A DNA stretch of 64,000 bases from an uncultured Verrucomicrobiota bacterium (GTDB taxonomy: Bacteria; Verrucomicrobiota; Verrucomicrobiia; Limisphaerales; UBA9464): positions 16,342 to 80,341 of the forward strand of contig CAILNN010000007.1 in assembly GCA_903835555.1 (NCBI GenBank), in the 5' to 3' direction. The notes beneath the pieces are model-generated. The model did not search any database, had not been told where the DNA came from, and was given only the letters and a program-made list of their open reading frames with translations. A program made the translations under genes and the position numbers. Positions 13,932-39,203 of this stretch are shown here, one piece after another (the first letter of the stretch is position 1; the number at the start of each line of letters is the position of its first letter).

Positions 13932-13938
13932 CCCAATC

Positions 13939-14307: not shown

Positions 14308-14322
14308 TTGAAAGAAGCTCAG

Positions 14323-15606: not shown

Positions 15607-15612
15607 GGCCGG

Positions 15613-21200: not shown

Positions 21201-21591
21201 GATGCAGCGGGTTGCCTTCGATCTTGGTCGGACGCCCGTCGGAGGATTTGACAATGAGCGGAACGGCACCAGCTCGGGCCGGCATGGCGGTGGCGAAATA
21301 CTGCCAGCCTCCGTGGGTATAGTTCTCCGGCTGCTTTGCGAAGGGTAAAAGGTGTGTTTCCGGACGACGGCATCCGGCCGCCATGCCGCCGAGGCCAGCC
21401 AGCAGAAAACTGGCCGACATCAGTTTCATCCACTCGCGTCGGCTTTCACCTTCCGGAGCGATGCTCGCACCGGCAGGGAATTCGCGTTCAACCCATTGAC
21501 GGAATTCCGGACGATCCGCGAGGTGGTCCAAGGAACGCCAATACTTCGGGCCGGTTTCCGGCTCAGGACAAACAGGGGGAATCGTCTTCAT
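18271..21591 (-). CDS. actB: Alternative complex III subunit ActB (molybdopterin-oxidoreductase-like + 4Fe-4S domains)
   Basis: Start chosen at [21 protein letters not shown] (an ATGA overlap with the actA stop at 21588-21591). It has a Tat-like SRREWMKL motif and C-terminal ferredoxin motifs ([37 protein letters not shown]). The 126-aa N-terminal extension of the listed ORF overlaps actA. Confidence 0.9.
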
Positions 21592-25254: not shown

Positions 25255-26724
25255 ATGAGCATGCCAACGTCGCTGCAAAGTCCGCAGGTGAATCCCATTC
25301 TCCAACCGCTGGTGTTCCCGAAGGTGGCCCGTGATGCGACTGGAAAGCTGGTGGTAACTCCGGGAATGGGCCTAACCGTCAAGAATCGGATATTTCGATC
25401 CAGTATCTCTGGACAATTTGATCACTACAATGGGACCGGTTCGGAGGTTCGGATCCGATGGGAGGAAAAATTCGCCCGAGGTGGGGTGGGTGCAATCATA
25501 TCCTCTTTTGTACCTGTACGATTGGACGGACGGATATTGCCGCGATATGCCCTTATTCATGACGATTCAACGATTCCGTTTTGGGAAGCCCTGGTAAAAC
25601 GAGTGCATGCCTTTGGCTGTAAGTACATCATTCAACTCAGTCATGGCGGACGTCAGCGCGATGTCCCTGGGGTGGAGAACATGATGGAGGCGGGTAAATC
25701 ATCAACCAACCAGACGGACAGCTTCCACGGACTCCTGGCGCGGGCCATGACCCGGGATGAAATCCATGAGATCGTGCAATCTTTTGCTGCGGGAGCTCGC
25801 CGTGCCAAGGCTGCGGGAGCGGATGGGGTCGAGTTGCATGCCTCCCACGGGTATCTATTCACTCAGTTTTTGAGTTCAGCAATCAATGATCGCACCGATG
25901 AATACGGCGGATCCATCAACAACCGGGCGCGATTTCTCCTGGAGGTCATTCGAGCGATTCGGGCGGAAGTGGGTTGGGATTTTCATGTTCAAGCGAAAAT
26001 CAATATCCTTGATCTCAACCGTGCATTTTTCCCCCTGGAATGGAAACAGGGTAATACCGTGGAAGAGGCGCTCCAAGTTTTTGCCTGGGCGGAGGAGGAA
26101 GGATTGAATGGGCTGCATGTCTCCGCCGGGACAACCTTCCCGCATCCGCTCGTACCACCGGGCGGCTTCCCAATTGATGAGGCCAATCGCCTCTATGGAG
26201 TCATGTGCCTGAGTGGTACACACGGATATCTCAATTATACCCTGTTCCATTTCCCATGGCTGCGGTGGATTTTCCGAGCCATCTGGAATCGAACCAAGAA
26301 AGATTTCCCCATCGAGGGGGTGACGGCCGCCCTCTGCAAGTTGGTCAAAGACGAGGCGATCGCCCGGGGATCCGCTCGCGGACTAAGAGTAAGTGCGGAG
26401 GAAGCCTCCCGGGGCATTCTAGCCCACATTCCGGTCCTGAATACGGGCGGTTATCAGGATGGTGCCCTCATTCGGCGGGTGATCACCGGGGGCCATTGTG
26501 ACGGGGTAGCCATTGCCCGCCCTTTGATTGCTAACAACGACTTGGTGAACAGCTATTTTGCGCAGGGAAAGGACCTGCCGGAGAAACCGTGCACGTTCTG
26601 CAATCGTTGCCTCCTCAACGCCTTGGGGCATCCATTGGGATGCTATGACGAGAGCCGCTTTACCAATCGCGAAGAAATGATTAAGACCGCCATGAGCGTT
26701 TTTCCTGATGCCTATGAACCCTAA
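25255..26724 (+). CDS. Old Yellow Enzyme-family NAD(P)H:flavin oxidoreductase with C-terminal Cys cluster
   Basis: It shows the OYE TIM-barrel pattern (GVGAIISSF..., GVELHASHGYLFTQFLSSAINDRTDEYGGSINNRARFLLEV) and a C-terminal CTFCNRCLLNALGHPLGC motif. Confidence 0.8.
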   Translation: MSMPTSLQSPQVNPILQPLVFPKVARDATGKLVVTPGMGLTVKNRIFRSSISGQFDHYNGTGSEVRIRWEEKFARGGVGAIISSFVPVRLDGRILPRYALIHDDSTIPFWEALVKRVHAFGCKYIIQLSHGGRQRDVPGVENMMEAGKSSTNQTDSFHGLLARAMTRDEIHEIVQSFAAGARRAKAAGADGVELHASHGYLFTQFLSSAINDRTDEYGGSINNRARFLLEVIRAIRAEVGWDFHVQAKINILDLNRAFFPLEWKQGNTVEEALQVFAWAEEEGLNGLHVSAGTTFPHPLVPPGGFPIDEANRLYGVMCLSGTHGYLNYTLFHFPWLRWIFRAIWNRTKKDFPIEGVTAALCKLVKDEAIARGSARGLRVSAEEASRGILAHIPVLNTGGYQDGALIRRVITGGHCDGVAIARPLIANNDLVNSYFAQGKDLPEKPCTFCNRCLLNALGHPLGCYDESRFTNREEMIKTAMSVFPDAYEP

Positions 26725-28333
26725 TCCAGACCCGGGCTTGCCGACCACGCGAACCCGCGGAGCTGACCGGGTGTTGGTCGATGTTGTGCGGTCCACTCCG
26801 GTCGAGGTGGCGCTGCGGCGGTTGTGGAGCCGAATCGCTGTAAGCATTGTCCTTCTTCTTTTGCTGCTGATCGTGCTCGCATTGGTTCGTCGTTTTACTA
26901 TCGACCAACCCGTAACCTACAAGACTGAGGCCGAACATTTTTTATACGGCTCCATCGGCAGTGAACCTGGGGGCAGCTTGCTTAGCCCCGTCGGCGGGAT
27001 GCTTCCCCCTTTCCAAATCATGGCCGTGCTGCCAGAGATGTTCCCGGATAAACTTCCGGGCGGTTATGCTTCTCTGGGACTGATTTATGAAAATGGTCCC
27101 GACGGAAAACCACGGGACCTACCCATCGGCCTAAGCCGACGTCATCGATTGGGGATGGAAATGGTCGGGCTCAATTGCGCGGTCTGCCACGTGGGGACTT
27201 ACCGAACATCGGCGGGCACCCCGCGTCGCATTGTCCCGGGTATGCCGGCGCATCAATTGGACCTCCAAGGCCTGTTCGCCTTTGTTTTGGACGTTGTATC
27301 GGACCCCAGATTCACGGCCGACAATGTCATCGGTCATATTGAAGCCAAGTTTGGCCCGATGAATCGTTTCGACCGCTTTGTCCTCGGCACGGCTATCATT
27401 CCCCAGGTGCAACGTCAAACTCTCACGCTTCGGTCGCGCGTTGGCATTCTATTTCAGCCGACGGCGGCGGTGTGGGGTCCCGGACGCGTCGATACGTTCA
27501 ATCCCTATAAATCCCTCCAGTTTGGTTGGTCACTTGAACGGCTTCCGAAGCGGGAACTTGTTGCCGCCTCAGACTTTCCAGCACTCTGGAATCAGGCACC
27601 CCGGCAAGGGTTGAACCTGCACTGGGACGGCAACAATTCCTCGCTCGATGAACGAAACCTCAGCGCAGGCCTTGGGGCAGGAATCACCCCGGTCACGGTA
27701 GACCGCTCAGGGATTGCCCGCGTTAAGTCGTACATTCTCGACCTGCCGCCTCCGAAATGGCCGGAAAGCCCGGAAATGCCGCTGGACCATGCTGCGGCTG
27801 GTCGCGGTGCCGGCATATTCAGGTCATATTGTGCCGAATGTCATGATTTTTCCGGAAAATACATCGGTACGGTGGTTCCGTGGGAGAAAATCCGAACGGA
27901 CCGCGCCCGTTTTGATTCCTACACCCTGGAGTTTTCCGCCAACCAAAACACCCTCTTTCCCAATTCCACTAATCGCTTCAGATCGTTCAAGAAAACCGTT
28001 GGTTACGCTAACCAGCCGCTGGACGGCATTTGGGCGCGAGCACCCTATCTTCACAATGGTTCGGTGCCCAGCCTGAGGGATTTATTGGAACCGTCTTCCC
28101 ATCGTCCAAAACAGTTCTATCGAGGGTGCGATATCTATGATCCCGCACGAGTCGGATTTGTGGATCAGGTAGCGCAAGAAAACGGGCACGCCTATTTTCT
28201 TTACCGCAGCCGTTTGGAGGACGGAACCCCAGTCGACGGTAACTCAAATGAAGGACACGAAGGAGAACTATATGGAACAGAATTGTCGCTCGCGGAGAAG
28301 CATGATCTGATTGAGTATCTGAAGACGCTATGA
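26708..28333 (+). CDS. Membrane-anchored di-haem cytochrome c peroxidase/MauG/RoxA-like protein, paralogue 1
   Basis: It has an N-terminal signal anchor and two CxxCH motifs (CAVCH at 27176-27190, CAECH at 27830-27844). It also has a CCP-like APYLHNGSVPSLRDLL motif. Its start overlaps the OYE gene by 17 nt. Confidence 0.7.
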   Translation: MPMNPNPDPGLPTTRTRGADRVLVDVVRSTPVEVALRRLWSRIAVSIVLLLLLLIVLALVRRFTIDQPVTYKTEAEHFLYGSIGSEPGGSLLSPVGGMLPPFQIMAVLPEMFPDKLPGGYASLGLIYENGPDGKPRDLPIGLSRRHRLGMEMVGLNCAVCHVGTYRTSAGTPRRIVPGMPAHQLDLQGLFAFVLDVVSDPRFTADNVIGHIEAKFGPMNRFDRFVLGTAIIPQVQRQTLTLRSRVGILFQPTAAVWGPGRVDTFNPYKSLQFGWSLERLPKRELVAASDFPALWNQAPRQGLNLHWDGNNSSLDERNLSAGLGAGITPVTVDRSGIARVKSYILDLPPPKWPESPEMPLDHAAAGRGAGIFRSYCAECHDFSGKYIGTVVPWEKIRTDRARFDSYTLEFSANQNTLFPNSTNRFRSFKKTVGYANQPLDGIWARAPYLHNGSVPSLRDLLEPSSHRPKQFYRGCDIYDPARVGFVDQVAQENGHAYFLYRSRLEDGTPVDGNSNEGHEGELYGTELSLAEKHDLIEYLKTL

Positions 28334-30687
28334 ATCCTGACGCCTCTGATCCGCGGTACTGGAAGCGGCTATACTCTTATACAGCCGGACTGGGGACCGT
28401 GCTGAGTTTCGTGTTGGCCTTGGCGCTAATGCTTGCGGCTCCGCAAGTTCTTGCACTCACGGGAGTGGGTGGTTTGCCAATCACCTGGACCCAGCTCTGC
28501 GGCGAGCTGTTGACTTTGATCAGCATCTTCTACCTGCCTCCGCTTTTGAACATTGACCGATACCGCCCCCACGGTTGGATCGCTGCGGTCATCGCACGCG
28601 GGACCACCGGTTTACTCTGTTGCATAGCTGTCCTGATTGGAGGGGCTCCGCGCTTGTTTCTCGCCTGGGGTTTGGTTGAATTTGTATTCGGTTTCGCCCA
28701 GATTTATCTGCTCCGTCGGCTAGAAGGGGCAGAAAATGGCCGGGGAAATCGTCCAGGAAGCGAGTGGAACGGCGGAGCGCGACCAAGCTGGAACCCCGAA
28801 GTCCCCCGTGCGGTAGATGCTATTCGGGTCAGGTGCTGGAAAAGAGCGTATCATTGGGTTGCCTGGATTGGCATCGGAGCAAACATGATTTTTGTCCTCC
28901 CTCTGGTGTTTTTTCCCCAGTGGATGCTCCGCATGCTCGGCGTGCCATCCGAGCCCGTGATTTGGGCTCAGTTGGCGGGACTTTTCCTCGGTTTGGTCAG
29001 TGTATTCTATATTCCGGCCATTGGTGATGTTGACAAATACCGGCTATTCGCTTGGTTGGCTATTTTCCCCTCCCGCACGGCGGGATTCACTTTTTGCACG
29101 ATTGCCGTGGTGAGTCTTGGTGCCAATGAGGCTTTCCTCCTTGGGGTGCTGTTGGATCTGCCGTTCGCCTTTCTTCAGACGATTATCCTTTCCCGCTTGA
29201 ATGTCGCGGAGCGGGCATTTGGTACGGCACCGAAACGACCTGCCTGGCGACCTTGGTTGAGACCTATCGCGGCTCTTGCGGTTGCCGTTGCCATTCTAGG
29301 AACAATCGGATGGCACAAACTGATTCGGGAATATCCACAAGCCCTGGCGAATGATTCGGTGGAGGAATACTTTAAGCACGGTTCTATCGGTGCCGAGGAC
29401 GCGCAAGGTCTGCCCTACTGGCTTTGGGTCTCGCTTCCAGCCGCCTTTCCGGAATACCTGCCAAAACCTGGGGGTTATGCCGCTCTCGGCTTTATCTGGG
29501 AACCGGGATCTGAAATGCCCGTTGGATTTACGCGCAAGCGAATCGGCTTCGATCGGGTGGGGATTAATTGTGCCCTATGTCACGCCGGTTCGGTACAGAT
29601 TCCAGGGGAAGCCCTCCCCCGCTGTTACCTGGGTGCGCCGGCCAATACGGCCAATATACTCGGATACCAACGGTTCCTGTTCGCCTGTGCCAAGGACCCT
29701 CGATTTAATGGAGCAACGTTGATGCCGATCATCGCACGTCAGGTCCGCTTGTCGTTGGCGGACCAGGCGCTCTATCGCGGGCTGCTAATTCCTGCCACAC
29801 GAAAAGCGCTCCTTCAGCAGGCCGCGGATTGGGATTGGACCAACGATCCCAAGAGACCCGAGTGGGGACCGGGTCGAATCGAACCCTTTAATCCGGTAAA
29901 AGTAGCCATTCTCCACGGTGTCGATCCCAAGGTTACCGTCGGAGAAACCCTTGGCACCTCGGACATGGAGCCCCTTTGGAGCCTGGGCACACATCCTGGA
30001 CGAGCCTTTCATTGGGATGGATTAAATACCGATCTCCGCGAAGTGGTGGATAGCTCTGCTCTGGGTGATGGAGCCACGCCGACATCCATTCCCCGCCCCC
30101 GTCTGCGGGAACTGGAGGTTTGGATTCGCAATAACCCGGCTCCCAAGTTTCCCTTTCCCGAGCCGGTGGACACCAACCTGGTCGCGCGGGGAGCGGGAAT
30201 CTATCGCGCCCAGTGTGCACGCTGTCATGCCGCCGATGGCGATCTTCTCGGACGGGTCACACCCGCTACAGAAATCGGCACCGATGATAACCGCGCCAAA
30301 ATGTGGACGCCCGAGGCAGCAACAGCCTACAACGGCTATCTGGATGGAAAATCATGGGTATTTTCTCACTTTAGGTCCACCGGAGGCTACGTCAATGTGC
30401 CCCTGGATGGACTGTGGCTCCGGGCACCCTACCTTCATAACGGATCAGTGCCGACGCTCAGCGATATCCTGAAACCGGTAGCCGAAAGACCCACCATATT
30501 CTGGCGCGGGCTGAACGACTACGATCCCAAGGCGGTGGGTTATGTCACCGATGGCCCCGCCGCACAATCCAAAGGGTTCCGATATGACACATCCCTTCGA
30601 GGCAACGGCAACCAGGGTCACACGTACGGGACCACCCTACCGCAGTCAGACAAGGCAGCGTTGCTGGAATACCTCAAGCAATTATGA
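28330..30687 (+). CDS. Di-haem CCP/MauG/RoxA-like protein, paralogue 2, fused to a duplicated 4-TM N-terminal domain
   Basis: An ATGA overlap joins it to paralogue 1. It has about 330 aa of N-terminal TM region, CALCH (29569-29583), CARCH (30214-30228) and APYLHNGSVPTLSDIL. It ends LLEYLKQL, compared with LIEYLKTL in paralogue 1. Confidence 0.7.
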   Translation: MNPDASDPRYWKRLYSYTAGLGTVLSFVLALALMLAAPQVLALTGVGGLPITWTQLCGELLTLISIFYLPPLLNIDRYRPHGWIAAVIARGTTGLLCCIAVLIGGAPRLFLAWGLVEFVFGFAQIYLLRRLEGAENGRGNRPGSEWNGGARPSWNPEVPRAVDAIRVRCWKRAYHWVAWIGIGANMIFVLPLVFFPQWMLRMLGVPSEPVIWAQLAGLFLGLVSVFYIPAIGDVDKYRLFAWLAIFPSRTAGFTFCTIAVVSLGANEAFLLGVLLDLPFAFLQTIILSRLNVAERAFGTAPKRPAWRPWLRPIAALAVAVAILGTIGWHKLIREYPQALANDSVEEYFKHGSIGAEDAQGLPYWLWVSLPAAFPEYLPKPGGYAALGFIWEPGSEMPVGFTRKRIGFDRVGINCALCHAGSVQIPGEALPRCYLGAPANTANILGYQRFLFACAKDPRFNGATLMPIIARQVRLSLADQALYRGLLIPATRKALLQQAADWDWTNDPKRPEWGPGRIEPFNPVKVAILHGVDPKVTVGETLGTSDMEPLWSLGTHPGRAFHWDGLNTDLREVVDSSALGDGATPTSIPRPRLRELEVWIRNNPAPKFPFPEPVDTNLVARGAGIYRAQCARCHAADGDLLGRVTPATEIGTDDNRAKMWTPEAATAYNGYLDGKSWVFSHFRSTGGYVNVPLDGLWLRAPYLHNGSVPTLSDILKPVAERPTIFWRGLNDYDPKAVGYVTDGPAAQSKGFRYDTSLRGNGNQGHTYGTTLPQSDKAALLEYLKQL

Positions 30688-30724
30688 TCTACCGGAGTCG
30701 TCCGTTATTCCCAGTTTTCCGCCC

Positions 30725-33700
30725 ATGAACTTAAACAAGCGAGAATTGAATTACGCACCCACGCCCGGGAGATGTCTGGTTGCTCTGGGACTCCTCCTTC
30801 TCCTCTTACCCGGGCTGCCGATCGTTGGGCAAACGACAAACGATTCTAGCTATAAATTCAACGTTCCCGATCGATTTGCCAACCAACCAATCGATGCTGC
30901 CCACCCGGTCGATGCTGGCTCGACCAATCATACCATCAATGATTTTCCGCCTGAGCCGAAAGATGTCTTCCATTTGATGGACCAAGTCGCGGATTCCAAT
31001 GAGGATCTTCACCCGATTGACTTTGGAGTGGCCAACGGGGTAATAGACCCGAGCAGCAAGGGCCAGAAGGCGATTTATGGACGCAACACCTGGCTTTTGT
31101 GGTGCGGCGGGAATGAGGACTTCTGGGATTGGTTATCCCAAGATGCGTATGGAGTTCTCGACTTCCTCAAGATGATCGATAGCCGCAAGCGGGAATCCCG
31201 ATTTCGAGATTTGGGTCTAATCAACCAACCAGGGATGAAGGCATCCACGAAGCCGGGGCCCTATGGGCTATATTTGGATACGGTCGAACGGCGCATCGGA
31301 GAGGAAGGGGGATATTCACCCTATTCGACCAAATTAGTGCCAGGCAGGACCGGACCGGAAGGTCTTGAGAGTGATGGGGTAAATCCCGCCGTTTATGGCT
31401 ATCCTAGCGGGATCATCGGGCTTCGGTTGTTTCCCAATCCCAAGTTTGATGAAGCCGCCCGCCGCCGCTGGAATCCCGAGGCTTTTTACAATGACCCGGT
31501 TTATTCCAAGGACCCGCGGACCGTTCGTCCGTTTCTAGTGGGAATGAGCTGTGCCCTCTGTCACGTGGCCATTCATCCGCTGAATCCACCGGTAAATCCC
31601 GAAGAACCATTATGGGCGAATCTTTCGTCAATCATCGGCAATCAATACTTTCGGACGAGTTCCGCATTCGGTTCGCCGGTCGAGCGAGGCAACTTTCTTT
31701 GGTATTATTTGGCAGCACAGCAACCAGGGACCATCGACACATCGATGGTGACCACTGATCACATCAACAATGCGAACGCCATGAATCCGGTGTTCGAATT
31801 GCCCGCCCGCATAGACCGGGCACTCCTTAATCCGGCGGAGGACCAAGGAGCACCCGCACGAACCTTTCCTGGCTCTGGCGATGGCGTCCGAAAGGTGCCG
31901 CGCGTATTGATGGAGGGAGCCGATTCGGTGGGCGTATTCGGGGCTCTGGCACGTGTGTTCCTAAATATCGGATTATTCCATGACGAATGGAACCTCTGTA
32001 GTAATCCAGTTATTGGTTTTGTGGGACAGAGGCCCTTCTCCATTGACGTCTGCCGTCGGAATTCCGTCTATTGGCGGGTCAACGAAAACTTCCGAGTCGG
32101 TTATCTTGCTGAATTCTTTCTTTGGGATAACCGAACCAACGTTGCCCCCGGTAAGTCAAAAGGAAAACGAATCCAGGCATCGACGGCGGGAATGCACTTG
32201 GACCAAGCCCGAGCTCCCCAATGCAGCATCGAATTGAAGCTCCTCGGGGTCGGCGAAAAGCCAACCCCAAAACCAGGTCGCCTTCTTTATGCGTTGGGAA
32301 AAGATGTCAATGGCCATCTGAAGGTGACCATATACGACGCAAATGGCCAGTTCGCTGTCGAAAAGGACGAAACCGGTGTCACCGGCAAGGATAGCCAGTG
32401 GGAAGCACTGCGAACGGCCACAGCGCATTATTCAACTGCCGACGCCATATCTGATGACCATAAAGCCGAGATTTTGGAGACGGTGTCCTCCTTGGTTGAG
32501 TATTCCCCTAAATTCATTAGTTTGCCGGAAAACAAGCACCATTGGGACCCGGACCGCGCTCTCGATGGCAGTCGGGTGTTTGTTCGAAATTGCATGATTT
32601 GCCATTCCAGCAAACAACCGGTGGGTTTCAACCTGACCTTTTCACAAAAACCTCCTGGAGGGGCCCAGACGTGGGATAAGGCACCGGAAAATCCGGATTC
32701 CCTGTGCCTGCCCTACAACTGGCAGGATTGGGAAATCTTCAAGAAAAGTCCATCTTATAAGGCGTATGTTGATGCAGCAATGACCTTGAGCGGGGCCGGC
32801 AATGCCGCCAAAGTCAAAGAGTTTATCGCGGAGAATTTCCTGTCCACCGATCTTCGTATTCCCGTCACTTTGGTGGGTACCTGCGCTGCCCGAGCATTGG
32901 CGACCAACGGAAAAGAAGGACAGGTTTGGGCGGAATATTCGTCGACGACCTACAAGCAACTGCCATCGGTTGGATTGATTCCCTACTACGATCCGTTTTC
33001 TCACACCACGAATTTCTACAAGGCACCTGGGAATGGTCCTGGTTTTTATCGTCCGGCTTCATTGGTTGGGGTCTGGGCGACAGCCCCATTACTGCATAAC
33101 AATTCATTGGGTTTCTACCTACCGGATTGGGACGAAGCCCGTCGCGTTTCGGTCGAAGGCCGTCTGGCGATGTTTGACGATGCGATCAATAAGTTGCTTT
33201 GGAAGTCCAAGCGTGAACTCAGCCCAAGCGGTGAGGCAGGTCTCCGCGACCCGTCCCCATCGGTCTGGCACGGAAAGGATCCGGGATGGATTTTTCGAAC
33301 TGATATGGAGACCGAGTTGCGCATCCCTCGCGGCCATATCCGCCATTTGATTGTAGGTACACTGCCGGGACTTGTGTATCGACCGCTGGTGCCGCTGGTT
33401 CTAGGAGCCCTCGATTATCCATGGGCACCTCCCTTGCTGTTGGGTGTTTTCAGTCTTGGGATTAGAATATGGAATCGACGATTCTACTTCTATCTGTTGG
33501 TTACTGAGGGGGCAGTGTTGCTTGCCGTCCTCTGGCTGACCGGCCTGGGATATCTGCTACCTTGGGTCATCTGGATTCCGCCACTGACTTTAATTGTCGG
33601 CGGATGGCTTTGGGTTGATTCCGCCCCGTCCACAAGCGCAAATGCTTCATCGCAAACAAAGCCCGTACCAAGCTGGGAGATTTGGGCGAAGACCTTCGTG

Positions 33701-34117
33701 CGTTGGTCAGCCATTGTAAGCAAAGGACTGATTTTGGTCGGTTTGTTCGCGGCTCTCTGGGTTGGGCGGACTTTTGTGAACGGTCAAATCTGTGATTTGG
33801 TGGTCGGTCCTTTTCCCAAGGGGGTTCCGGTCAATGCGTTGATGAATCTTGACCCGGACTCGCCATTTCTAGACCGACTGGGTGCTCTCCGGGGAATCAT
33901 GTCAACCATCGGAAAGCTGCGTGCAGACGATCTCCGTCCCAAGGAAAAGCGGTTCACCGACGAACAGCGTCTCGCCATCTTCGAAGCAGAGGCAGGTCCG
34001 GCGCTGATGAAGGTGAGCAAATGTCCAGACTTCATCATGGACCGTGGCCACTATTTTGGCGAGGCATTGTCGGATGCGGATAAAGTCGATTTGATTGCCT
34101 TCCTGAAAACCCTCTGA
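30725..34117 (+). CDS. Di-haem CCP/MauG/RoxA-like protein, paralogue 3 (expanded, with C-terminal TM insert)
   Basis: Start chosen at MNLNKRELNY... (signal peptide). It has CALCH (31550-31564), CMICH (32591-32605) and VWATAPLLHNNS, with TM helices at about 33380-33770. It ends LIAFLKTL. Confidence 0.65.
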   Translation: MNLNKRELNYAPTPGRCLVALGLLLLLLPGLPIVGQTTNDSSYKFNVPDRFANQPIDAAHPVDAGSTNHTINDFPPEPKDVFHLMDQVADSNEDLHPIDFGVANGVIDPSSKGQKAIYGRNTWLLWCGGNEDFWDWLSQDAYGVLDFLKMIDSRKRESRFRDLGLINQPGMKASTKPGPYGLYLDTVERRIGEEGGYSPYSTKLVPGRTGPEGLESDGVNPAVYGYPSGIIGLRLFPNPKFDEAARRRWNPEAFYNDPVYSKDPRTVRPFLVGMSCALCHVAIHPLNPPVNPEEPLWANLSSIIGNQYFRTSSAFGSPVERGNFLWYYLAAQQPGTIDTSMVTTDHINNANAMNPVFELPARIDRALLNPAEDQGAPARTFPGSGDGVRKVPRVLMEGADSVGVFGALARVFLNIGLFHDEWNLCSNPVIGFVGQRPFSIDVCRRNSVYWRVNENFRVGYLAEFFLWDNRTNVAPGKSKGKRIQASTAGMHLDQARAPQCSIELKLLGVGEKPTPKPGRLLYALGKDVNGHLKVTIYDANGQFAVEKDETGVTGKDSQWEALRTATAHYSTADAISDDHKAEILETVSSLVEYSPKFISLPENKHHWDPDRALDGSRVFVRNCMICHSSKQPVGFNLTFSQKPPGGAQTWDKAPENPDSLCLPYNWQDWEIFKKSPSYKAYVDAAMTLSGAGNAAKVKEFIAENFLSTDLRIPVTLVGTCAARALATNGKEGQVWAEYSSTTYKQLPSVGLIPYYDPFSHTTNFYKAPGNGPGFYRPASLVGVWATAPLLHNNSLGFYLPDWDEARRVSVEGRLAMFDDAINKLLWKSKRELSPSGEAGLRDPSPSVWHGKDPGWIFRTDMETELRIPRGHIRHLIVGTLPGLVYRPLVPLVLGALDYPWAPPLLLGVFSLGIRIWNRRFYFYLLVTEGAVLLAVLWLTGLGYLLPWVIWIPPLTLIVGGWLWVDSAPSTSANASSQTKPVPSWEIWAKTFVRWSAIVSKGLILVGLFAALWVGRTFVNGQICDLVVGPFPKGVPVNALMNLDPDSPFLDRLGALRGIMSTIGKLRADDLRPKEKRFTDEQRLAIFEAEAGPALMKVSKCPDFIMDRGHYFGEALSDADKVDLIAFLKTL

Positions 34118-34121
34118 ATTC

Positions 34122-36332
34122 ATGGCTCCCCTTGGAACAAGCCACGGTGCCGAACCCAGTGGTTTCGATGGCATACCACTGGGGAGCCTGGAGGCCGATT
34201 CAACCGACATCGACTATATCATCGTCGGTTCGGGCCCAGGTGGCTCGCCATTGGCCTGCAGGTTGGCACAGGCGGGAATGCGGGTGCTCGTTCTCGAAGC
34301 CGGCCTCGATTCTGGCCCCAAACTGCTTTCTCCGCACCTGTCGCCTAATGTTGCCGAACAAGTTCAGCATCAATCTGAGAACGAGGCTCTGCTCTATAGC
34401 TGTCCGGGATTGCATGCCGCTTCGACCGAGGCTCACTTATACCCCGACGCCCAGGCCAAACCGTCCTGTTGGGGGTTCTCGGTTCGCCATTACTCCCAAC
34501 CTGAATCCATCCCTGCTCCATCAACGACCTATTATTATCCCCGGGCCTCGGCAGTCGGCGGATGTTCCACTCACCATGCGCTGATTTCGATTTATGGTTT
34601 GGATGCCGATTGGGACGAGATTGCGTCAATGACCGGCGATGGTTCCTGGTCATCGTCCAAAATGCGGTCCATTTATCGCCGAATTGAGCGACTAAGTTAC
34701 GGCAATTCGATAACCCGAATTGGTCGCTGGTGGAACCGATTTTTGGACTGGGTTAATCCCGGTCGGAATGCGCCGGGCGAGCGTGGTGAAGATGGCTGGC
34801 TGGACGTCACCATTAGCAAGCCCGATCTGGCCCTCAAGGACCCTCAATTATCCCGCCTCATCACGACTGCATTCCTCAACGAAACCGACCTATCCACACC
34901 TGAAAAAACGTGGCGTTGGTTGAAGCAATTGTTACTCGGTCAATTTTATCGCGATATTGACCTGAACGATGCCGTACGGATGCGGAATAATCCCGAGGGG
35001 ATTGCCCTGATTCCGATTGCAGTGGCTCCCGGTGGTACGCGACGCGGACCCAGGGAGTTCCTGCTGGAGACCCGCCAACAACTGAAAGAAGCCGTCGAGC
35101 ATGAAGTCAAATCCACCATTCCCACCGGGAGCATTCAGATTGCAACCGGCATATTTGTCCTCCGCGTCATAATGAAAGAGTCAGAAGAAGGCGGCCCTCC
35201 GCGGGCAATCGGGGTGGAATTCTTGCGGGGACATCAGCTTTATTCTGCGAGTTTGCCGTCGGTCCAGGCAACCGACCGGCGTCCTGAACGGTGCTTTTGC
35301 CGCCGGGAGGTAATCCTATCCGCCGGAGCGTTCAATACACCGCAGATTCTCATGCTCAGTGGGATTGGCGATCCAAAGCATTTGGAAGAAATGTTAAACC
35401 AAACGACACCTTTGACGCACGCGCGGCCTCCTATACGGGTGGCTCTCCCCGGTGTTGGGGCAAACCTGATGGATAGGTACGAGATCAGTGTGGTCAGCGT
35501 GTTGAAGGAAGGGTTTTCACTCTTGAATGGCGCAAAATTCCAACCGAATGTTAAGGACAAAGAGGACATTGGCCTTCAGAATTGGCTGGATGTAGAAAAA
35601 ACGGGGAATCGAGACGGAGTTTACACCAGCAACGGGGCCGTGATGGCCATTCTCAAACGGTCGAACCCAAAGCTCAGGAAGCCCGACCTCTTTTTTCTCG
35701 GATTTCCCGCCGCTTTTCGGGGGTATTATCCAGGATGGTCGAAAGACCTTCTCCGACTTGATCCTAAGGAACCCGCAGCCCCGCTAAATCGAAATCTCTG
35801 GAGTTGGACGATTTTAAAGGCGTATTCCAGCAATCGCGGGCACGTTCGCCTGCGCTCTCCAGACCCCCTCCAGGCACCGGATATTCACTTTTGCTACTTC
35901 GACGACAAGCCGGAACAATATGTTGGCCCGCATGCAAATCGAAATGCGGACTTGGACGCCTTGGTTGAGGCTGTTGCCCTCGCGCGACGGCTCAATCATG
36001 GAGCCAAAGCGTTGGTTCACTCCGAACTCCACCCCGGCGCGGAAAAAAAAGACAAATCGGACGACTTGCGTCGCTGGATTGTCGGCCAAACCTGGGGACA
36101 CCATGCCTGCGGTACCTGTCGAATTGGCGCGGACGCATGGCGGTCGAACCCAGCAGAACTCAACGATCGTGGGGCGGTCTTGGACAGCCATTTTCGCGTG
36201 CACGGTGTCGAGGGGCTACGAGTGGTCGACGCATCTGTTTTTCCAAATATACCAGGATATTTTATTGCCACGTCCGTTTATATGGTCAGCGAAAAGGCGG
36301 CGGAGACCATCCTCAATGAACTATCCCTTTGA
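34122..36332 (+). CDS. GMC-family FAD oxidoreductase (unusually long, 736 aa)
   Basis: It has DYIIVGSGPGGSPLACRLAQAGMRVLVLEAG (the FAD fingerprint) and C-terminal GHHACGTCRIG and VVDASVFPNIPG motifs. It starts 4 nt after paralogue 3. Confidence 0.85.
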   Translation: MAPLGTSHGAEPSGFDGIPLGSLEADSTDIDYIIVGSGPGGSPLACRLAQAGMRVLVLEAGLDSGPKLLSPHLSPNVAEQVQHQSENEALLYSCPGLHAASTEAHLYPDAQAKPSCWGFSVRHYSQPESIPAPSTTYYYPRASAVGGCSTHHALISIYGLDADWDEIASMTGDGSWSSSKMRSIYRRIERLSYGNSITRIGRWWNRFLDWVNPGRNAPGERGEDGWLDVTISKPDLALKDPQLSRLITTAFLNETDLSTPEKTWRWLKQLLLGQFYRDIDLNDAVRMRNNPEGIALIPIAVAPGGTRRGPREFLLETRQQLKEAVEHEVKSTIPTGSIQIATGIFVLRVIMKESEEGGPPRAIGVEFLRGHQLYSASLPSVQATDRRPERCFCRREVILSAGAFNTPQILMLSGIGDPKHLEEMLNQTTPLTHARPPIRVALPGVGANLMDRYEISVVSVLKEGFSLLNGAKFQPNVKDKEDIGLQNWLDVEKTGNRDGVYTSNGAVMAILKRSNPKLRKPDLFFLGFPAAFRGYYPGWSKDLLRLDPKEPAAPLNRNLWSWTILKAYSSNRGHVRLRSPDPLQAPDIHFCYFDDKPEQYVGPHANRNADLDALVEAVALARRLNHGAKALVHSELHPGAEKKDKSDDLRRWIVGQTWGHHACGTCRIGADAWRSNPAELNDRGAVLDSHFRVHGVEGLRVVDASVFPNIPGYFIATSVYMVSEKAAETILNELSL

Positions 36333-39159
36333 ACTTCGGCAGCACGAGGCCTATGCGGTGCGCGAGCGGCGGCGCACAGCTCGACAAACAAACGTCAGCG
36401 AGCCGACGAACAGCACCAGTGAGGAAAAAACAGCATCCCTAGGTCGTTTGCCAAGCGATTCGGTTGGCTTGGCTTTCTCAGGGGGTGGGATTCGATCAGC
36501 CACCTTTTGCCTGGGAGTGCTTCAAGGCTTGGCCAAGAAGGACCGGCTTCGACGCATTGATTTTCTTTCAACGGTCTCAGGGGGCGGTTACATCGGGTGT
36601 TTCCTGGGGCGACTATTTACCCGCCAACCCATTCCAAAATTGGGGGCTGATCAGGAATGCCAGTCGTGTCATGGAATCCCCTGTGGTTGCGACCCATGTG
36701 ACAATGTGCAACGGATATTACTGAATAGTCGATCGTCTCCCATCCAATGGCTCCGGGCACATGGCAATTATATCTTTACCAGCGGTTCGGATGAAATCGA
36801 AGGTGTGGGTGGTCTTTGGCGAAATTTGGCTGCCATCCACCTAGTTCTCGCGTTTTTTGGGACCGGGATTTTTGGAATCCTGCATATTTTGGGAGAAATG
36901 AGTGGTGGCTTTCAAATGCTCGAAGCTCCGGTGGTTTTTGGTATTGCTCTAAGTGTTTGGTGGCCCCTGCCGCCACTGTTATTTGCCTTTGCCGTTATTC
37001 CCAATTCTCTGGCTTACTGGTTGGTGCCCAGGAGCGGAAACGCGGCGCGCTTCAATTTTGTCCCTCTAGGAGTCTGGCTGCTGCTTTTCTCGACCCTCGG
37101 ACTCATGCTGGCCGCAGCCGACGCGCCCGTCGGCGGGCTTCTTGCGGTGGCGATTTTGGCCTCGACCCCGATATGGCTGGAATTGACTGGTTATCGTCCG
37201 TCATCGCAAGAACGCATAAAACGGCATTCGACAGAATCCCACCCAATTTCCGACCGATCGCAGAATCGGGATCGATTGACGCTTGGATTGGGGGAGGTTC
37301 TCGCTCTGTTTGCCGCATCTCTTATCTGGGTGTTCATTGATACGCTGGCAAAAAACCTCGCGTCGGGAAATCTCATCTACATCCTGGGGGGATGGAGCGC
37401 GCTTGCGAGCGCACTGTTTCCCTTTTTGCAAAAAGTTGCCAAAAAATGGATGAATCCAGCCAAGACCTCCGGTACGAATCCCTTCCTAAGCACCGGTACC
37501 AAGGCGGCCCTTATCGCCATTCCATTGGTGATCGTGTTGATGAGCTTGCAGGATGCCTTTGTTCATTGGCTTTTCTTGCAGAATTCTATCTGGGGATTGG
37601 AGGTCACGGGATTGGCAATCGGAACTTCCCTTCTGCTGGGAACGGCTGTTCAGTTCTTGAACACTTCTTCGCTATTGCACGCCTACACAGAACGGTTGTC
37701 CCGTTGTTTTCTGGGTGCCTCCAACCCAAAACGCAGCAGCGATTCGGAAGATGCAAACCAAAACGTGCTAATCTCTGAGCCGGAGGATGACCTGCCATTC
37801 CATCAATATCATCCGGAACAGCACGGTGGCCCTCTCCACCTCATCAACCTCTGTATCAATGAGACCGTGGATGCCGTCTCGCAGCGCGAGGCGAGGGATC
37901 GCAAAGGGCTTTCAATGTGCGTCGGGCCTTGTGGAGTCAGCGTCGGGAGGCGCTTTCACTCCCTGTGGAGCCTTCAGCCGGCAAAAAGCGATTTGACCTC
38001 GAGGTTGATTCATTGGGTCCAGCATCGTACGAACGCGCTGGATGCTCAAGTCGCTCTCAAGCCAATCGTGCGATCGAGTGAAACCTTCCACGTCTTAATG
38101 GGGAAAACCGAAGGAGCCGTCTCGGTGGAACCGCTGCCGCTCTCTTTGTGGATGGGCATCTCAGCGGCTGCGTTTGGAACCGGAACGGGAGGGTCAACTT
38201 GTCTTTCGTTTTCCCTCCTTTGCGGATTGGCGAATGTGCGCCTGGGGTACTGGTGGAATAGCGGTTTATCGCCGGGTGATCGCCCGGGTCGTTATCCGCA
38301 AGACCTATGGCAACGATTGAAACAACTTCCGATGTATCTGACCCGGATGCAGCATATGTTGCTGGCTGAATTTCGGGGAAGTTTTGCTGGGCCGGGACAG
38401 CGATATTGGAATCTTTCCGACGGAGGACATTTCGAAATCACGGGTCTTTATGAACTAATTCGGCGGCGAGTGCCCTTCATCATCGCCGTCGATGCCGGAC
38501 ACGATATCGCCCTGACGTTCAGCGATCTGGGCGATTTGGTTCGACTTGTGAGGATTGATTTTTGCGCCGAGATGACCTTTCTTGATCAGGAGCAGGTTCA
38601 AAGTCTCAAACGCTATGTCGAAGGGGGACACGAATATATTGAGGCGACATTGTCTAGTCCCTTGAAGAAGGAGTTGATTCCAGAAGGGCCGCCCGCACTC
38701 GATCCAAAGAAGCTGGAGGAGTTGGAAACGGAATTAGCAGGACATGAATTGAAGTTGTTCCAGAACGGTTTCTTGGATTCAATGGTGATTAATTCAGCAT
38801 CCGACAGTGCTCGCAAAGCGAGACTCCTCGATCAGGGGTTGAAGGAGCATTTTTGGTGGTCCAGATGGCTTCAATTCGACGCGATTAGCTCGCTGGAAAA
38901 GATTGGCAAGAATGACGGCAAACACGCCGCTTTGGCTCGGGTCGCGTTTCCTCCAACCTGCAATGAATACGTCAACACCCTTTGGGTTATTCTACTGAAA
39001 TCGAGTCTGACCGGCGATGAGTCCTTGGACATCAAGTCGTTTAAACAGGCTGATCCCGACTTCCCAAATGATTCTACCACCAATCAATTCTTTACTGAAG
39101 GCCAATGGGAAAGCTACCGCTGTTTGGGCGAACACATTTCCACGACCGTCTTGAAATGA
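36316..39159 (+). CDS. Patatin/cPLA2-like phospholipase with a large polytopic membrane insertion
   Basis: Start chosen at MNYPFELRQ (36316, a 17-nt overlap with the GMC gene). It has an oxyanion motif (SGGGIRS), a nucleophile motif (STVSGGGYIG) and, about 650 aa later, the Asp motif (LSDGGHFEITG). Multiple TM helices lie between them. Confidence 0.75.
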   Translation: MNYPFELRQHEAYAVRERRRTARQTNVSEPTNSTSEEKTASLGRLPSDSVGLAFSGGGIRSATFCLGVLQGLAKKDRLRRIDFLSTVSGGGYIGCFLGRLFTRQPIPKLGADQECQSCHGIPCGCDPCDNVQRILLNSRSSPIQWLRAHGNYIFTSGSDEIEGVGGLWRNLAAIHLVLAFFGTGIFGILHILGEMSGGFQMLEAPVVFGIALSVWWPLPPLLFAFAVIPNSLAYWLVPRSGNAARFNFVPLGVWLLLFSTLGLMLAAADAPVGGLLAVAILASTPIWLELTGYRPSSQERIKRHSTESHPISDRSQNRDRLTLGLGEVLALFAASLIWVFIDTLAKNLASGNLIYILGGWSALASALFPFLQKVAKKWMNPAKTSGTNPFLSTGTKAALIAIPLVIVLMSLQDAFVHWLFLQNSIWGLEVTGLAIGTSLLLGTAVQFLNTSSLLHAYTERLSRCFLGASNPKRSSDSEDANQNVLISEPEDDLPFHQYHPEQHGGPLHLINLCINETVDAVSQREARDRKGLSMCVGPCGVSVGRRFHSLWSLQPAKSDLTSRLIHWVQHRTNALDAQVALKPIVRSSETFHVLMGKTEGAVSVEPLPLSLWMGISAAAFGTGTGGSTCLSFSLLCGLANVRLGYWWNSGLSPGDRPGRYPQDLWQRLKQLPMYLTRMQHMLLAEFRGSFAGPGQRYWNLSDGGHFEITGLYELIRRRVPFIIAVDAGHDIALTFSDLGDLVRLVRIDFCAEMTFLDQEQVQSLKRYVEGGHEYIEATLSSPLKKELIPEGPPALDPKKLEELETELAGHELKLFQNGFLDSMVINSASDSARKARLLDQGLKEHFWWSRWLQFDAISSLEKIGKNDGKHAALARVAFPPTCNEYVNTLWVILLKSSLTGDESLDIKSFKQADPDFPNDSTTNQFFTEGQWESYRCLGEHISTTVLK

Positions 39160-39203
39160 AAGGGGCTTCCTTAATTGCAACTGGCCAAAATCGAATTCAT
39201 TCG

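What the first reader, a model, noticed from the sequence alone, without database searches (positions are those of the whole stretch)
36316..39159. Patatin-like lipase whose catalytic Ser and Asp motifs are separated by about 650 residues of polytopic membrane domain, plus a Cys-rich CxxCH-containing knot
The oxyanion and nucleophile motifs (SGGGIRS, STVSGGGYIG) lie at residues of about 55-93. The catalytic-Asp motif (LSDGGHFEITG) lies near residue 740. Many hydrophobic helices lie between them. Directly after the Ser motif there is a compact Cys cluster, ECQSCHGIPCGCDPCDN (about 36658-36702). It contains a formal CxxCH haem-attachment motif and could equally be a metal knuckle. The gene overlaps the GMC gene by 17 nt, so it belongs to the operon.
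Basis: partly seen in the sequence, partly recalled or inferred. Interest (0 to 1): 0.55.

Follow-up and report, generated by a model that had tools for sequence, protein, structure and literature searches.

The report
Membrane-embedded patatin-type lipase, GMC-coupled
This gene encodes a lipase of the patatin/cytosolic-phospholipase-A2 type whose catalytic domain is split by an eight-helix membrane bundle. It belongs to a very large, unstudied bacterial family that is usually fused to a flavin oxidoreductase, and its eye-catching cysteine cluster is a lineage-specific cytoplasmic loop, not a haem site.

Summary
The Ser and Asp are 614 residues apart. About 290 of those residues form an eight-helix membrane bundle. 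The other ~250 are cytoplasmic.

Positive-inside analysis and the signal-less GMC partner put both catalytic halves in the cytoplasm. The AlphaFold model (pLDDT 80.5) best matches cPLA2.

The Cys cluster is non-random but occurs in only 2 of 113 homologues. CxxCH occurs in 1 of 113, and the loop is cytoplasmic, so c-type haem attachment is excluded.

The family is very large: 3,448 clusters at 50% identity with E<=1e-30. Neither Pfam nor NCBIfam covers residues 105-947, and I found no literature on it.

Of the 120 nearest relatives, 86 are GMC-patatin fusions. The window carries a conserved split form with a 17-nt overlap. Every GMC-linked locus with enough upstream DNA also encodes a ~1,100-aa membrane di-haem cytochrome.

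Best reading: an integral-membrane, cytoplasm-facing lipid acyl-hydrolase working as one unit with an FAD oxidoreductase, probably in oxidative lipid processing. The substrate is unknown.

The parts
36316..39159 (+). Gene for the 947-aa membrane-embedded patatin/cPLA2-like hydrolase ('PatTM')
   Evidence: ORF and translation. Exact protein is present in public assemblies. More than 6,600 homologues.
36328..36384 (+). Conserved N-terminal helix (aa 5-23). In fused relatives it is the linker that follows the GMC domain.
   Evidence: Y3, P4, E11, A14, R18 and R19 are nearly invariant. Helix 5-23 has pLDDT 86-93.
36478..36498 (+). Oxyanion / phosphate-binding loop SGGGIRS (aa 55-61) after strand beta1
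   Evidence: G56 113/113, G57 112/113, G58 112/113, R60 108/113. Aligns with the GGG(A/x)K loop of VipD and ExoU. Strand 50-55.
36568..36597 (+). Nucleophile elbow STVSGGGYIG (aa 85-94) with catalytic Ser88. The motif is (T/S)xSGG rather than GxSxG.
   Evidence: S88 113/113; position 86 is T in 87, S in 25 and G in 1. Strand 83-86 followed by helix 89-102. Aligns with VipD Ser73.
36655..36705 (+). Lineage-specific Cys-rich loop ECQSCHGIPCGCDPCDN (aa 114-130), cytoplasmic
   Evidence: The insertion is present in 2 of 113 homologues and CxxCH in 1 of 113. pLDDT is 56-70, below 50 at aa 120-123. P~5e-4 for 5 Cys within 15 aa.
36787..37665 (+). Eight-helix membrane bundle (aa ~158-450) inserted after the nucleophile helix. 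N and C ends are both cytoplasmic.
   Evidence: Hydropathy cores at 171-189, 210-228, 248-266, 270-290, 323-341, 353-371, 398-416 and 430-448. Family-average profile and K+R counts of 17.6 inside vs 3.3 outside. Long helices in the AF2 model. No Pfam match.
37666..38586 (+). Second, cytoplasmic half of the catalytic alpha/beta core (aa 451-757)
   Evidence: Strands 507-515, 531-552, 580-584, 645-648, 697-701 and 721-726. Many invariant residues. Foldseek best hits are cPLA2 alpha and delta.
38413..38445 (+). Catalytic Asp motif LSDGGHFEITG (aa 700-710; Asp702)
   Evidence: D702 111/113, G703 113/113, G704 112/113. A collinear sub-threshold alignment places it on VipD Asp288.
38587..38868 (+). 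Lineage-specific helical, charged insertion (aa ~758-851)
   Evidence: Present only in the window protein and P0002. pLDDT is 43-52 over aa ~781-830, with segments below 50.
38869..39156 (+). Conserved C-terminal subdomain (aa 852-947)
   Evidence: W890, K895, F916, P917, E932, R935 and G938 are invariant. pLDDT 85-95.
34122..36332 (+). GMC-family FAD oxidoreductase (736 aa, no signal peptide). Obligate partner, fused to PatTM in most relatives.
   Evidence: Pfam GMC_oxred_N/C. N-terminus has no signal or TAT motif. Fusions. 17-nt overlap.
30725..34117 (+). Membrane di-haem cytochrome c (1,130 aa): signal/anchor, two invariant CxxCH (aa 276-280 and 623-627), and a membrane-helix cluster at aa ~869-1018. 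Conserved genetic partner.
   Evidence: Translation. Start 30725 matches the deposited protein. C276/C279/H280 and C623/C626/H627 are invariant. Present upstream in 32 of 32 GMC-linked loci with enough sequence. AF2 pLDDT 86.
25255..30687 (+). Upstream genes of the same tightly packed operon: an OYE-type flavin ene-reductase (25255-26724) and two paralogous di-haem CCP/RoxA-like cytochromes (26708-28333, 28330-30687)
   Evidence: Pfam and NCBIfam hits. Overlaps of 17 nt and 4 nt. The two cytochromes are 36% identical paralogues.

Best explanation
Shown or strongly indicated:
- The gene encodes an integral inner-membrane enzyme built on the Ser-Asp acyl-hydrolase fold of patatin and cytosolic phospholipase A2.
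- The fold is interrupted directly after the nucleophile helix by an eight-helix membrane bundle.
- Because the number of helices is even, the two halves (aa 1-157 and 451-947) both lie in the cytoplasm.

Inferred:
- The two halves reassemble into one catalytic domain under the bundle, bringing Ser88, the GGGxR oxyanion/phosphate loop and Asp702 together at the cytoplasmic face of the membrane.
- The bundle replaces the soluble cap of cPLA2 and feeds a membrane lipid ester laterally into the active site, where an acyl chain is cleaved off.
- The enzyme acts as one unit with the cytoplasmic GMC flavoprotein encoded 17 nt-overlapped upstream (covalently fused in most relatives), which oxidises a hydroxyl of the released or remaining lipid product.
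- This unit is genetically tied to a membrane-anchored periplasmic di-haem cytochrome. In this window it also sits with two CCP/RoxA-like di-haem proteins and an ene-reductase, which together suggest oxidative lipid processing (oxylipin formation or turnover of oxidised lipid).

The Cys cluster is a clade-specific cytoplasmic loop. It has no role in haem binding and is not part of the family's mechanism.
For: Catalytic motifs:
- They are invariant across 113 homologues.
- The Pfam Patatin model matches aa 52-102.
- The profile hits VipD, ExoU and cPLA2-delta. A collinear sub-threshold alignment puts Ser88 on VipD Ser73 and Asp702 on VipD Asp288.

Structure:
- The AF2 model has pLDDT 80.5 and pTM 0.82, with the order beta1-loop-helix-beta2-Ser-helix ... 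beta-DGG.
- The best Foldseek hits are cPLA2-alpha and cPLA2-delta (prob 0.93-0.98), followed by ExoU, patatin, VipD and CapV/CapE.

Topology:
- Eight hydrophobic helices are predicted. K+R counts are 17.6 inside and 3.3 outside, averaged over the family.
- The GMC protein and the fused relatives start directly with the FAD-binding motif and have no signal peptide.

Coupling to GMC:
- 86 of the 120 nearest relatives are fusions.
- Among 80 genomes, 33 loci are fused and 5 are split.
- The 17-nt overlap is conserved.

Coupling to the di-haem protein:
- It is present in 32 of 32 informative GMC-linked loci and in 4 GMC-less loci.
- A two-gene module occurs on plasmid pOM4.

Hints at a lipid or oxygenase theme:
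- One natural GMC-PatTM-cytochrome P450 triple fusion exists. Its P450 is nearest to CYP19, CYP4B1 and CYP102.
- The C-terminal half of the GMC protein is closest to fatty-acid photodecarboxylase.
- Di-haem CCP-like enzymes are known fatty-acid dioxygenases in P. aeruginosa (PMC4496055).
Against: - There are no biochemical data for any family member.
- The Patatin HMM only just reaches its threshold (27.9 vs 27.7 bits) and covers 50 of 191 positions.
- Nothing in Pfam or NCBIfam matches aa 105-947.
- Foldseek E-values are only 9e-3 or worse.
- The Asp assignment rests on motif conservation, the predicted strand context and a non-significant alignment.
- I could not read model coordinates, so the Ser-Asp distance was not measured.
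- The nucleophile pentapeptide is not the canonical GxSxG.
- The di-haem partner has only sub-threshold similarity to CCP/RoxA, and its confident model has no PDB fold match. Its oxygenase or peroxidase role is therefore conjecture.
- The OYE and subtilase genes are not conserved next to the module elsewhere.
- The haem proteins are periplasmic while the hydrolase and GMC are cytoplasmic. A shared pathway would need a lipid to cross leaflets.
Confidence: 0.6

Rival explanations
1. Membrane-disrupting defence or toxin effector. Like CBASS CapV/CapE or ExoU-type patatins, the protein would be a regulated phospholipase that destroys the cell's own (or a target's) membrane on activation. The membrane bundle would keep it in place.
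For: - Patatin effectors of defence systems are among the Foldseek hits (CapV, CapE).
- TIR-domain genes lie near the module in two relatives.
- Relatives occur on plasmids and singly in variable regions.
Against: - No PADLOC model matches PatTM, GMC or the di-haem protein.
- No cyclase, sensor or nucleotide-binding partner is conserved.
- The conserved partners are redox enzymes.
- The family is spread across many phyla as a stable two- or three-gene module.
Confidence: 0.1
2. The membrane protein is mainly an anchor and quinone-access module for the GMC dehydrogenase, in the way BetA and AlkJ are membrane-associated quinone-linked GMC enzymes. The patatin part would be a vestigial or purely structural scaffold, or a transacylase rather than a hydrolase.
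For: - GMC is fused or translationally coupled.
- From general knowledge, membrane-associated GMC dehydrogenases pass electrons to quinone, and patatin-family enzymes can act as transacylases.
- Invariant polar residues D342, D413 and H417 in the bundle suggest that it does more than hold the protein in the membrane.
Against: - The oxyanion loop, Ser and Asp are invariant in GMC-linked relatives.
- Motif matches to all three were found in 124 of 143 wider-family representatives, mostly GMC-less, which argues for retained catalysis.
- Most of the wider family has no GMC at all: 128 of 143 representatives are under 1,300 aa.
Confidence: 0.15
3. One reading: the Cys cluster with its CxxCH binds a c-type haem, or is a functionally central metal knuckle. 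This would make the protein a redox-active lipase.
For: - A formal CxxCH is present, and 5 Cys plus 1 His lie within 15 aa, which is non-random.
- All five Cys are kept in the one close relative.
Against: - The loop is an insertion in 2 of 113 homologues, and the His is Arg in the other carrier.
- The loop is cytoplasmic, whereas covalent haem attachment takes place on the periplasmic side (established knowledge of the Ccm and Ccs systems).
- Model confidence is low in the loop.
- A zinc site specific to this clade remains possible but would not be part of the family mechanism.
Confidence: 0.03

Closest known systems
Cytosolic phospholipase A2 (group IV; PDB 1cjy, 5iz5)
   Same: - Ser-Asp dyad.
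- GGGxR loop whose Arg binds the phosphate.
- A large insertion (the cap) between the Ser and the Asp.
- Works at the cytoplasmic membrane surface.
- Best structural match to the model.
   Different: - No C2 domain.
- The soluble cap is replaced by an eight-helix integral membrane bundle.
- The nucleophile motif is (T/S)xSGG rather than GLSGS.
- It is not detected by any cPLA2 sequence model.
- Foldseek E is only 9e-3.
Patatin-like phospholipases (Pfam PF01734): patatin, ExoU, VipD, CapV, PlpD
   Same: The N-terminal beta-loop-helix-beta-Ser-helix unit matches the HMM (27.9 bits) and the VipD/ExoU sequences. A DGG Asp motif is present.
   Different: - The Ser-Asp distance is ~614 aa here. From general knowledge it is ~150-215 aa in these proteins.
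- The membrane bundle lies inside the domain. Known membrane-attached members carry an appended domain instead: the Omp85 barrel in PlpD, or (from general knowledge) an N-terminal helix in PNPLA6.
- About 85% of the protein is outside any curated model.
Membrane-associated GMC dehydrogenases (BetA choline dehydrogenase, AlkJ alcohol dehydrogenase) and fatty-acid photodecarboxylase
   Same: The partner is a cytoplasmic FAD enzyme of the GMC family. Its C-terminal half is most similar to fatty-acid photodecarboxylase among solved structures (E 3e-12).
   Different: - It is ~190 aa longer than typical GMC enzymes.
- It is covalently or translationally joined to a lipase.
- The usual second catalytic His/Asn position appears to read PxIPGYF. 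This is an alignment judged by eye and has not been verified.
Fatty-acid di-haem cytochrome c peroxidases (FadCcp; P. aeruginosa PA2077/PA2078) and rubber oxygenase RoxA
   Same: Two operon genes (26708-28333 and 28330-30687) pass the NCBIfam di-haem CCP model and match the RoxA cytochrome-c-like element. FadCcp enzymes oxygenate free unsaturated fatty acids in the periplasm (PMC4496055).
   Different: The conserved partner (30725-34117) matches only below threshold, contains a membrane-helix cluster, and its confident model has no PDB match. No direct comparison with PA2077 or PA2078 could be run.

Membership tests
Patatin / cPLA2-type Ser-Asp acyl hydrolases | Gly-rich oxyanion loop GGGx(R/K) directly after the first beta-strand | tested here: met
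   SGGGIRS at aa 55-61. G56 113/113, G57 112/113, G58 112/113, R60 108/113. Strand 50-55 precedes it. Aligns with the same loop of VipD and ExoU.
Patatin / cPLA2-type Ser-Asp acyl hydrolases | Nucleophilic Ser on a strand-turn-helix elbow | tested here: met
   S88 is invariant in 113/113. It lies between strand 83-86 and helix 89-102. It aligns with VipD Ser73.
Patatin / cPLA2-type Ser-Asp acyl hydrolases | Literal GxSxG pentapeptide around the Ser | tested here: not met
   The motif is (T/S)-x-S-G-G. The first position is T in 87, S in 25 and G in only 1 of 113. I therefore file the protein as a divergent new family of the superfamily, not as a canonical patatin.
Patatin / cPLA2-type Ser-Asp acyl hydrolases | Catalytic Asp in a DG(G/A) motif after a beta-strand | tested here: met
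   D702 111/113, G703 113/113, G704 112/113. Strand 697-701 precedes it. A collinear but non-significant alignment places it on VipD Asp288.
Patatin / cPLA2-type Ser-Asp acyl hydrolases | Sequence-model score above the curated threshold over the whole domain | tested here: inconclusive
   PF01734 scores 27.9 bits against a cut-off of 27.7, and only profile positions 1-49 of 191 are matched. The C-terminal half matches nothing.
Patatin / cPLA2-type Ser-Asp acyl hydrolases | Alpha/beta fold superposable on solved members, with Ser and Asp adjacent | tested here: inconclusive
   The best Foldseek hits are cPLA2-alpha and cPLA2-delta (prob 0.93-0.98) but with E>=9e-3 and low TM-scores, because of the membrane insert.
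Patatin / cPLA2-type Ser-Asp acyl hydrolases | Acyl-ester hydrolase activity | not testable with these tools
   Needs enzyme assays.
c-type cytochrome (covalent haem at CxxCH) | CxxCH conserved among homologues | tested here: not met
   CxxCH is in 1 of 113 homologues. The only other carrier of the Cys loop has CQSCR.
c-type cytochrome (covalent haem at CxxCH) | Motif located on the periplasmic side, where haem is attached | tested here: not met
   The loop lies before TM1 on the K/R-rich side, and it is contiguous with a signal-less GMC domain in fused relatives.
Unnamed GMC-patatin-membrane family with a di-haem partner | Full-length collinear homology, a GMC domain or gene directly upstream, and a ~1,100-aa di-haem membrane protein gene upstream of that | tested here: met
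   Homologues score from E=0 to 1e-157. GMC lies at 34122-36332 with a 17-nt overlap. The di-haem gene lies at 30725-34117, and 32 of 32 informative GMC-linked loci show the same order.
Anti-phage defence patatin effectors (for example CBASS CapV) | Match to a defence-system model and a conserved signalling or sensor partner | tested here: not met
   No PADLOC hit for PatTM, GMC or the di-haem protein. The conserved neighbours are redox proteins.
Zinc / metal knuckle | Metal bound by the Cys/His cluster | not testable with these tools
   All five Cys are conserved in the two carriers. The AF2 model is of low confidence here. Metal analysis is needed.

The most novel reading that the evidence does not exclude
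The membrane-split lipase, the GMC flavoprotein and the membrane di-haem cytochrome form one inner-membrane machine that has not been described. In this reading the di-haem subunit oxygenates, or reduces a peroxide on, a membrane lipid at the periplasmic leaflet. The lipase bundle takes the modified lipid to the cytoplasmic face and cuts off the acyl chain. The FAD domain then oxidises the new hydroxyl. This would be a bacterial, membrane-integrated route for making oxylipins or clearing oxidised phospholipids, present in hundreds of soil and aquatic species.
Probability: 0.25. Interest if true: 0.8.

Novelty: new variant of a known kind. Interest (0 to 1): 0.6.

Why it matters
Patatin and cPLA2 enzymes are textbook peripheral, interfacially activated lipases. 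Here the same catalytic fold is permanently built into the membrane, with an eight-helix bundle inserted inside the domain.

The scale is large and the family is undescribed:
- The architecture defines a family with 3,448 sequence clusters (50% identity) at E<=1e-30.
- It was found in more than 500 species genomes across Verrucomicrobiota, Planctomycetota, Acidobacteriota and Proteobacteria.
- No curated model covers about 85% of the protein.
- My searches found no literature on it.

Its near-obligate pairing with a flavin oxidoreductase and a di-haem membrane protein with no detectable relative among solved structures points to an unexplored lipid-oxidation or lipid-repair activity in the bacterial inner membrane. 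Cultured carriers make this directly testable: Paraburkholderia nodosa DSM 21604, Labrys okinawensis DSM 18385, Mesorhizobium onobrychidis OM4 and Roseateles sp. SL47.

Tried and rejected
- Pfam, NCBIfam and PADLOC scans of the whole protein and of four separate segments found only the N-terminal 50-residue patatin match.
- PDB sequence searches with the full-family profile and with a profile from which the membrane insert was removed gave only weak N-terminal hits (VipD, E~3e-3) and a sub-threshold Asp-region alignment.
- Foldseek found no credible relative for the membrane bundle. Transporter hits had prob <0.1.
- Foldseek on the confident model of the di-haem partner found nothing (best E 0.74), so its 'peroxidase/oxygenase' label could not be strengthened. 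Its PDB sequence search was also empty.
- Four literature searches for GMC+patatin, membrane patatins, patatin+CCP/oxylipin and patatin+choline dehydrogenase found no paper on this architecture. The one candidate, a Collimonas study, mentions patatin only in passing.
- Contexts of GMC-less relatives on plasmids were uninformative.
- A crude hydropathy count of helices across 124 distant relatives over-splits segments. I used it only to show that a long hydrophobic insert between Ser and Asp is general (Ser-Asp distance 489-966 aa, median 630).
- The haem hypothesis was rejected and the defence-effector hypothesis was ranked low, for the reasons given under the rival explanations.
Full report
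**Observation**

The ORF at 36316-39159 (+) is intact and encodes 947 aa. Exact motif positions:
- SGGGIRS at aa 55-61.
- STVSGGGYIG at aa 85-94.
- The Cys cluster ECQSCHGIPCGCDPCDN at aa 114-130 (nt 36655-36705).
- LSDGGHFEITG at aa 700-710.

The start MNYPFEL is conserved in stand-alone homologues. A GGAG lies 10 nt upstream, and the ATG sits 17 nt inside the GMC gene (34122-36332). The cluster of five Cys within 15 residues is non-random (P~5e-4 by shuffling), and the expected number of CxxCH motifs is 0.007. All the described features are therefore real. Two figures need correcting. Ser88 and Asp702 are 614 residues apart, not ~650. Only ~290 of those residues are membrane helices.

**Anatomy and topology**

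Hydropathy gives eight helices: 171-189, 210-228, 248-266, 270-290, 323-341, 353-371, 398-416 and 430-448. The same cores appear in the family-average profile of 113 homologues.

Averaged over the family, the predicted cytoplasmic segments carry 17.6 Lys+Arg and the predicted periplasmic loops carry 3.3. An even helix number puts both soluble parts on the same side.

That side is the cytoplasm. The GMC protein has no signal or twin-arginine peptide. In fused relatives the polypeptide begins with a short hydrophilic stretch that runs straight into the FAD-binding GxGxxG, and then continues without a break into the patatin N-terminus.

An AlphaFold2 model built on 54 sequences is confident (pLDDT 80.5, pTM 0.82). 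Its element order is:
- strand 50-55, the Gly loop, helix 58-74;
- strand 83-86, Ser88, helix 89-102;
- the low-confidence Cys loop and two short helices;
- the long membrane helices, aa 158-450;
- a second alpha/beta region that includes strand 697-701 followed by Asp702.

**What it is**

Pfam sees only the first ~50 residues of the patatin domain (27.9 bits against a cut-off of 27.7). NCBIfam and PADLOC see nothing.

Family profiles hit VipD (E~3e-3), ExoU and cPLA2-delta at the Gly-loop/Ser unit. With the membrane insert removed, a collinear sub-threshold alignment also puts Asp702 on VipD Asp288 and Ser88 on VipD Ser73.

Foldseek ranks cPLA2-alpha and cPLA2-delta first (prob 0.93-0.98, E 9e-3). 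ExoU, patatin, VipD and CapV/CapE follow.

Across 113 homologues, G56/G57/G58 are present in 113/112/112, R60 in 108, S88 in 113, D702 in 111 and G703/G704 in 113/112. The nucleophile pentapeptide is (T/S)xSGG, not GxSxG.

I conclude that this is a divergent member of the patatin/cPLA2 superfamily, with a membrane bundle inserted after the nucleophile helix. It is closest in logic to cPLA2, which also has a large insertion (the cap) between its Ser and its Asp.

**The Cys cluster**

In the alignments the cluster is an insertion present only in the window protein and in its 77%-identical relative P0002. P0002 reads CQSCRGNPCDCDPC, so CxxCH occurs in 1 of 113 sequences. Only the last Cys (C128) is at all common, in 38 of 113.

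The loop is cytoplasmic (see topology above) and poorly modelled. A clade-specific metal site cannot be tested here.

A second clade-specific insertion (aa ~758-851, helical and charged, low confidence) is also confined to these two proteins.

**Family size and distribution**

A word-indexed search returned more than 6,600 homologues. An exhaustive HMMER search of 1.84 billion cluster representatives found 14,440 at E<=1e-3, 8,876 at <=1e-10 and 3,448 at <=1e-30.

A scan of one genome per species found at least 526 species. They include Verrucomicrobiota, Planctomycetota, Acidobacteriota, Myxococcota, Burkholderiales and Rhizobiales. Cultured carriers include Paraburkholderia nodosa, Labrys, Dongia soli, Rhizobium sp. 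BK602 and Paludisphaera soli. Forty plasmid records also carry relatives.

In 124 of 143 distant representatives all three motifs are found, 489-966 residues apart (median 630), with several hydrophobic segments in between. The membrane insertion is therefore the hallmark of the whole family. Literature searches found no description of it.

**Partners**

GMC:
- Of the 120 nearest relatives, 86 are ~1,550-1,650-aa proteins with GMC_oxred_N/C fused in front of the patatin part.
- Among 80 genome loci, 33 are fused, 5 are split, 31 lack GMC and 11 are cut by contig ends.
- The split form with exactly 17 nt of overlap recurs in relatives of 43-77% identity. It is a stable, translationally coupled arrangement, not an assembly error.

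The di-haem protein:
- In all 32 GMC-linked loci with enough upstream sequence, a ~1,000-1,130-aa protein homologous to window 30725-34117 lies directly upstream.
- Four GMC-less loci keep the di-haem genes next to the lipase.
- In Mesorhizobium onobrychidis plasmid pOM4 and in Roseateles sp. SL47 the two genes stand as a minimal module.
- The partner has a signal/anchor, two invariant CxxCH motifs and a cluster of membrane helices near its C-terminus.
- It matches the di-haem CCP and RoxA-like models only below threshold. Its confident model (pLDDT 86) has no PDB match.

The window operon:
- The genes are packed tightly: overlaps of 17, 4 and 17 nt, and gaps of 37, 4 and 44 nt.
- It also contains an OYE-type ene-reductase and two paralogous di-haem proteins that do pass the NCBIfam CCP model.
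- The OYE and the downstream subtilase are not conserved with the module elsewhere.

**Mechanism**

Shown or strongly indicated:
- A cytoplasm-facing Ser-Asp hydrolase domain split by an eight-helix bundle.
- An obligate link to a cytoplasmic FAD enzyme.
- A conserved genetic link to a periplasmic di-haem membrane protein.

Inferred:
- The bundle takes the place of the cPLA2 cap and delivers a bilayer lipid ester to the active site.
- The conserved GGGxR Arg favours a phospholipid-type head group. This rests on the known role of Arg200 in cPLA2.
- The GMC domain oxidises a hydroxyl on the product.

The theme of oxidative lipid processing is supported only by circumstantial points:
- One natural GMC-lipase-P450 triple fusion, whose P450 is nearest to CYP19, CYP4B1 and CYP102.
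- The C-terminal half of the GMC protein is closest to fatty-acid photodecarboxylase.
- Di-haem CCP-like fatty-acid dioxygenases are known in P. aeruginosa (PMC4496055).
- The window operon contains an ene-reductase, which would fit reduction of an enone made from an allylic alcohol.

The main difficulty is that the haem proteins and the hydrolase/GMC lie on opposite sides of the membrane.

**Rivals**

- A defence or toxin effector (~0.1). It has no PADLOC match and no signalling partner.
- A mere anchor for GMC, or a transacylase (~0.15). The invariant dyad in GMC-linked relatives, and the matching motifs in the mostly GMC-less wider family, argue for retained catalysis.
- A haem or metal redox knot (~0.03).

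**Verdict**

The Cys/haem idea is refuted. It is a new variant of a known enzyme kind, with an unknown substrate and a conserved, uncharacterised set of partners.

Noticed in passing
window 30542-34117 (true start 30725): The mechanical ORF of the di-haem partner starts at 30542 and overlaps the preceding gene by 146 nt. The start at 30725 (MNLNKRE..., followed by a signal/anchor helix) gives a 1,130-aa protein identical to deposited gene calls.
   Followed up: yes
window 30725-34117: The conserved di-haem membrane protein gives a confident AF2 model (pLDDT 86, pTM 0.86). It has no Foldseek match in the PDB (best E 0.74) and no sequence match either, so it may have a new fold. Its family has at least 857 members (E <= 1e-10), and the 120 listed carry either no name or only 'hypothetical protein' or a generic cytochrome c label.
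   Followed up: partly
window 39105-41252: The subtilase (Peptidase_S8) ORF overlaps the lipase gene by 55 nt if it starts at 39105. An internal ATG at 39204 is followed by a lipoprotein-like signal (…LLAMGC…), so the overlap is probably a gene-call artefact and the protease a periplasmic lipoprotein. It is not conserved next to the module elsewhere.
   Followed up: partly
protein P0129 (metagenomic relative, 2,027 aa): A natural triple fusion of GMC oxidoreductase, membrane-split patatin and cytochrome P450. The P450 part is nearest to CYP19, CYP4B1 and CYP102 among solved structures.
   Followed up: partly
window 37339-37341, 37552-37554, 37564-37566 (aa D342, D413, H417): Invariant or nearly invariant polar residues lie near the predicted periplasmic ends of TM5 and TM7 of the lipase bundle: D342 113/113, D413 109/113, H417 97/113. 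A pure anchor role does not explain them. They could be a contact site for the di-haem partner, or a metal or head-group site.
   Followed up: no
window 35772-36329 (C-terminal half of the GMC protein): Among solved structures, this half is most similar to the algal fatty-acid photodecarboxylase (E 3e-12). The protein keeps the first catalytic His (GHHACGTC) but reads PNIPGYF where canonical GMC enzymes have the second His/Asn. This alignment was judged by eye.
   Followed up: partly
window 25255-28333: The OYE-type flavoprotein gene and the first di-haem gene also overlap by exactly 17 nt. This is the same overlap length as the GMC/lipase junction. The two following di-haem genes overlap by 4 nt.
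   Followed up: no
window 28330-30687: The 785-aa di-haem protein is a paralogue of the 541-aa one (36% identity over its C-terminal ~455 aa). It carries an extra ~330-aa N-terminal region that looks hydrophobic in places.
   Followed up: no
window 12495-21969 (minus strand): A respiratory cluster unrelated to the finding: a 1,232-aa protein with 4Fe-4S dicluster domains, an NrfD-like membrane subunit and a COX1-like oxidase subunit. It looks like an alternative-complex-III plus oxidase arrangement.
   Followed up: no
L007 (Luteolibacter) 1342-4260 and 15041-20660; L005 1-671: In Luteolibacter, a second long patatin-like gene (972 aa) and three TIR-domain genes flank the module. A TIR gene also lies ~9 kb upstream of the module in another relative. 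This could be coincidence or a link to defence islands.
   Followed up: no
L008 (Roseateles) 17662-18462 and 24227-24677; L089 (Mesorhizobium pOM4) 14642-16642: Nickel/cobalt-type transporter genes (NicO, HupE/UreJ, DUF4198) lie near the two-gene module in two unrelated proteobacteria.
   Followed up: no
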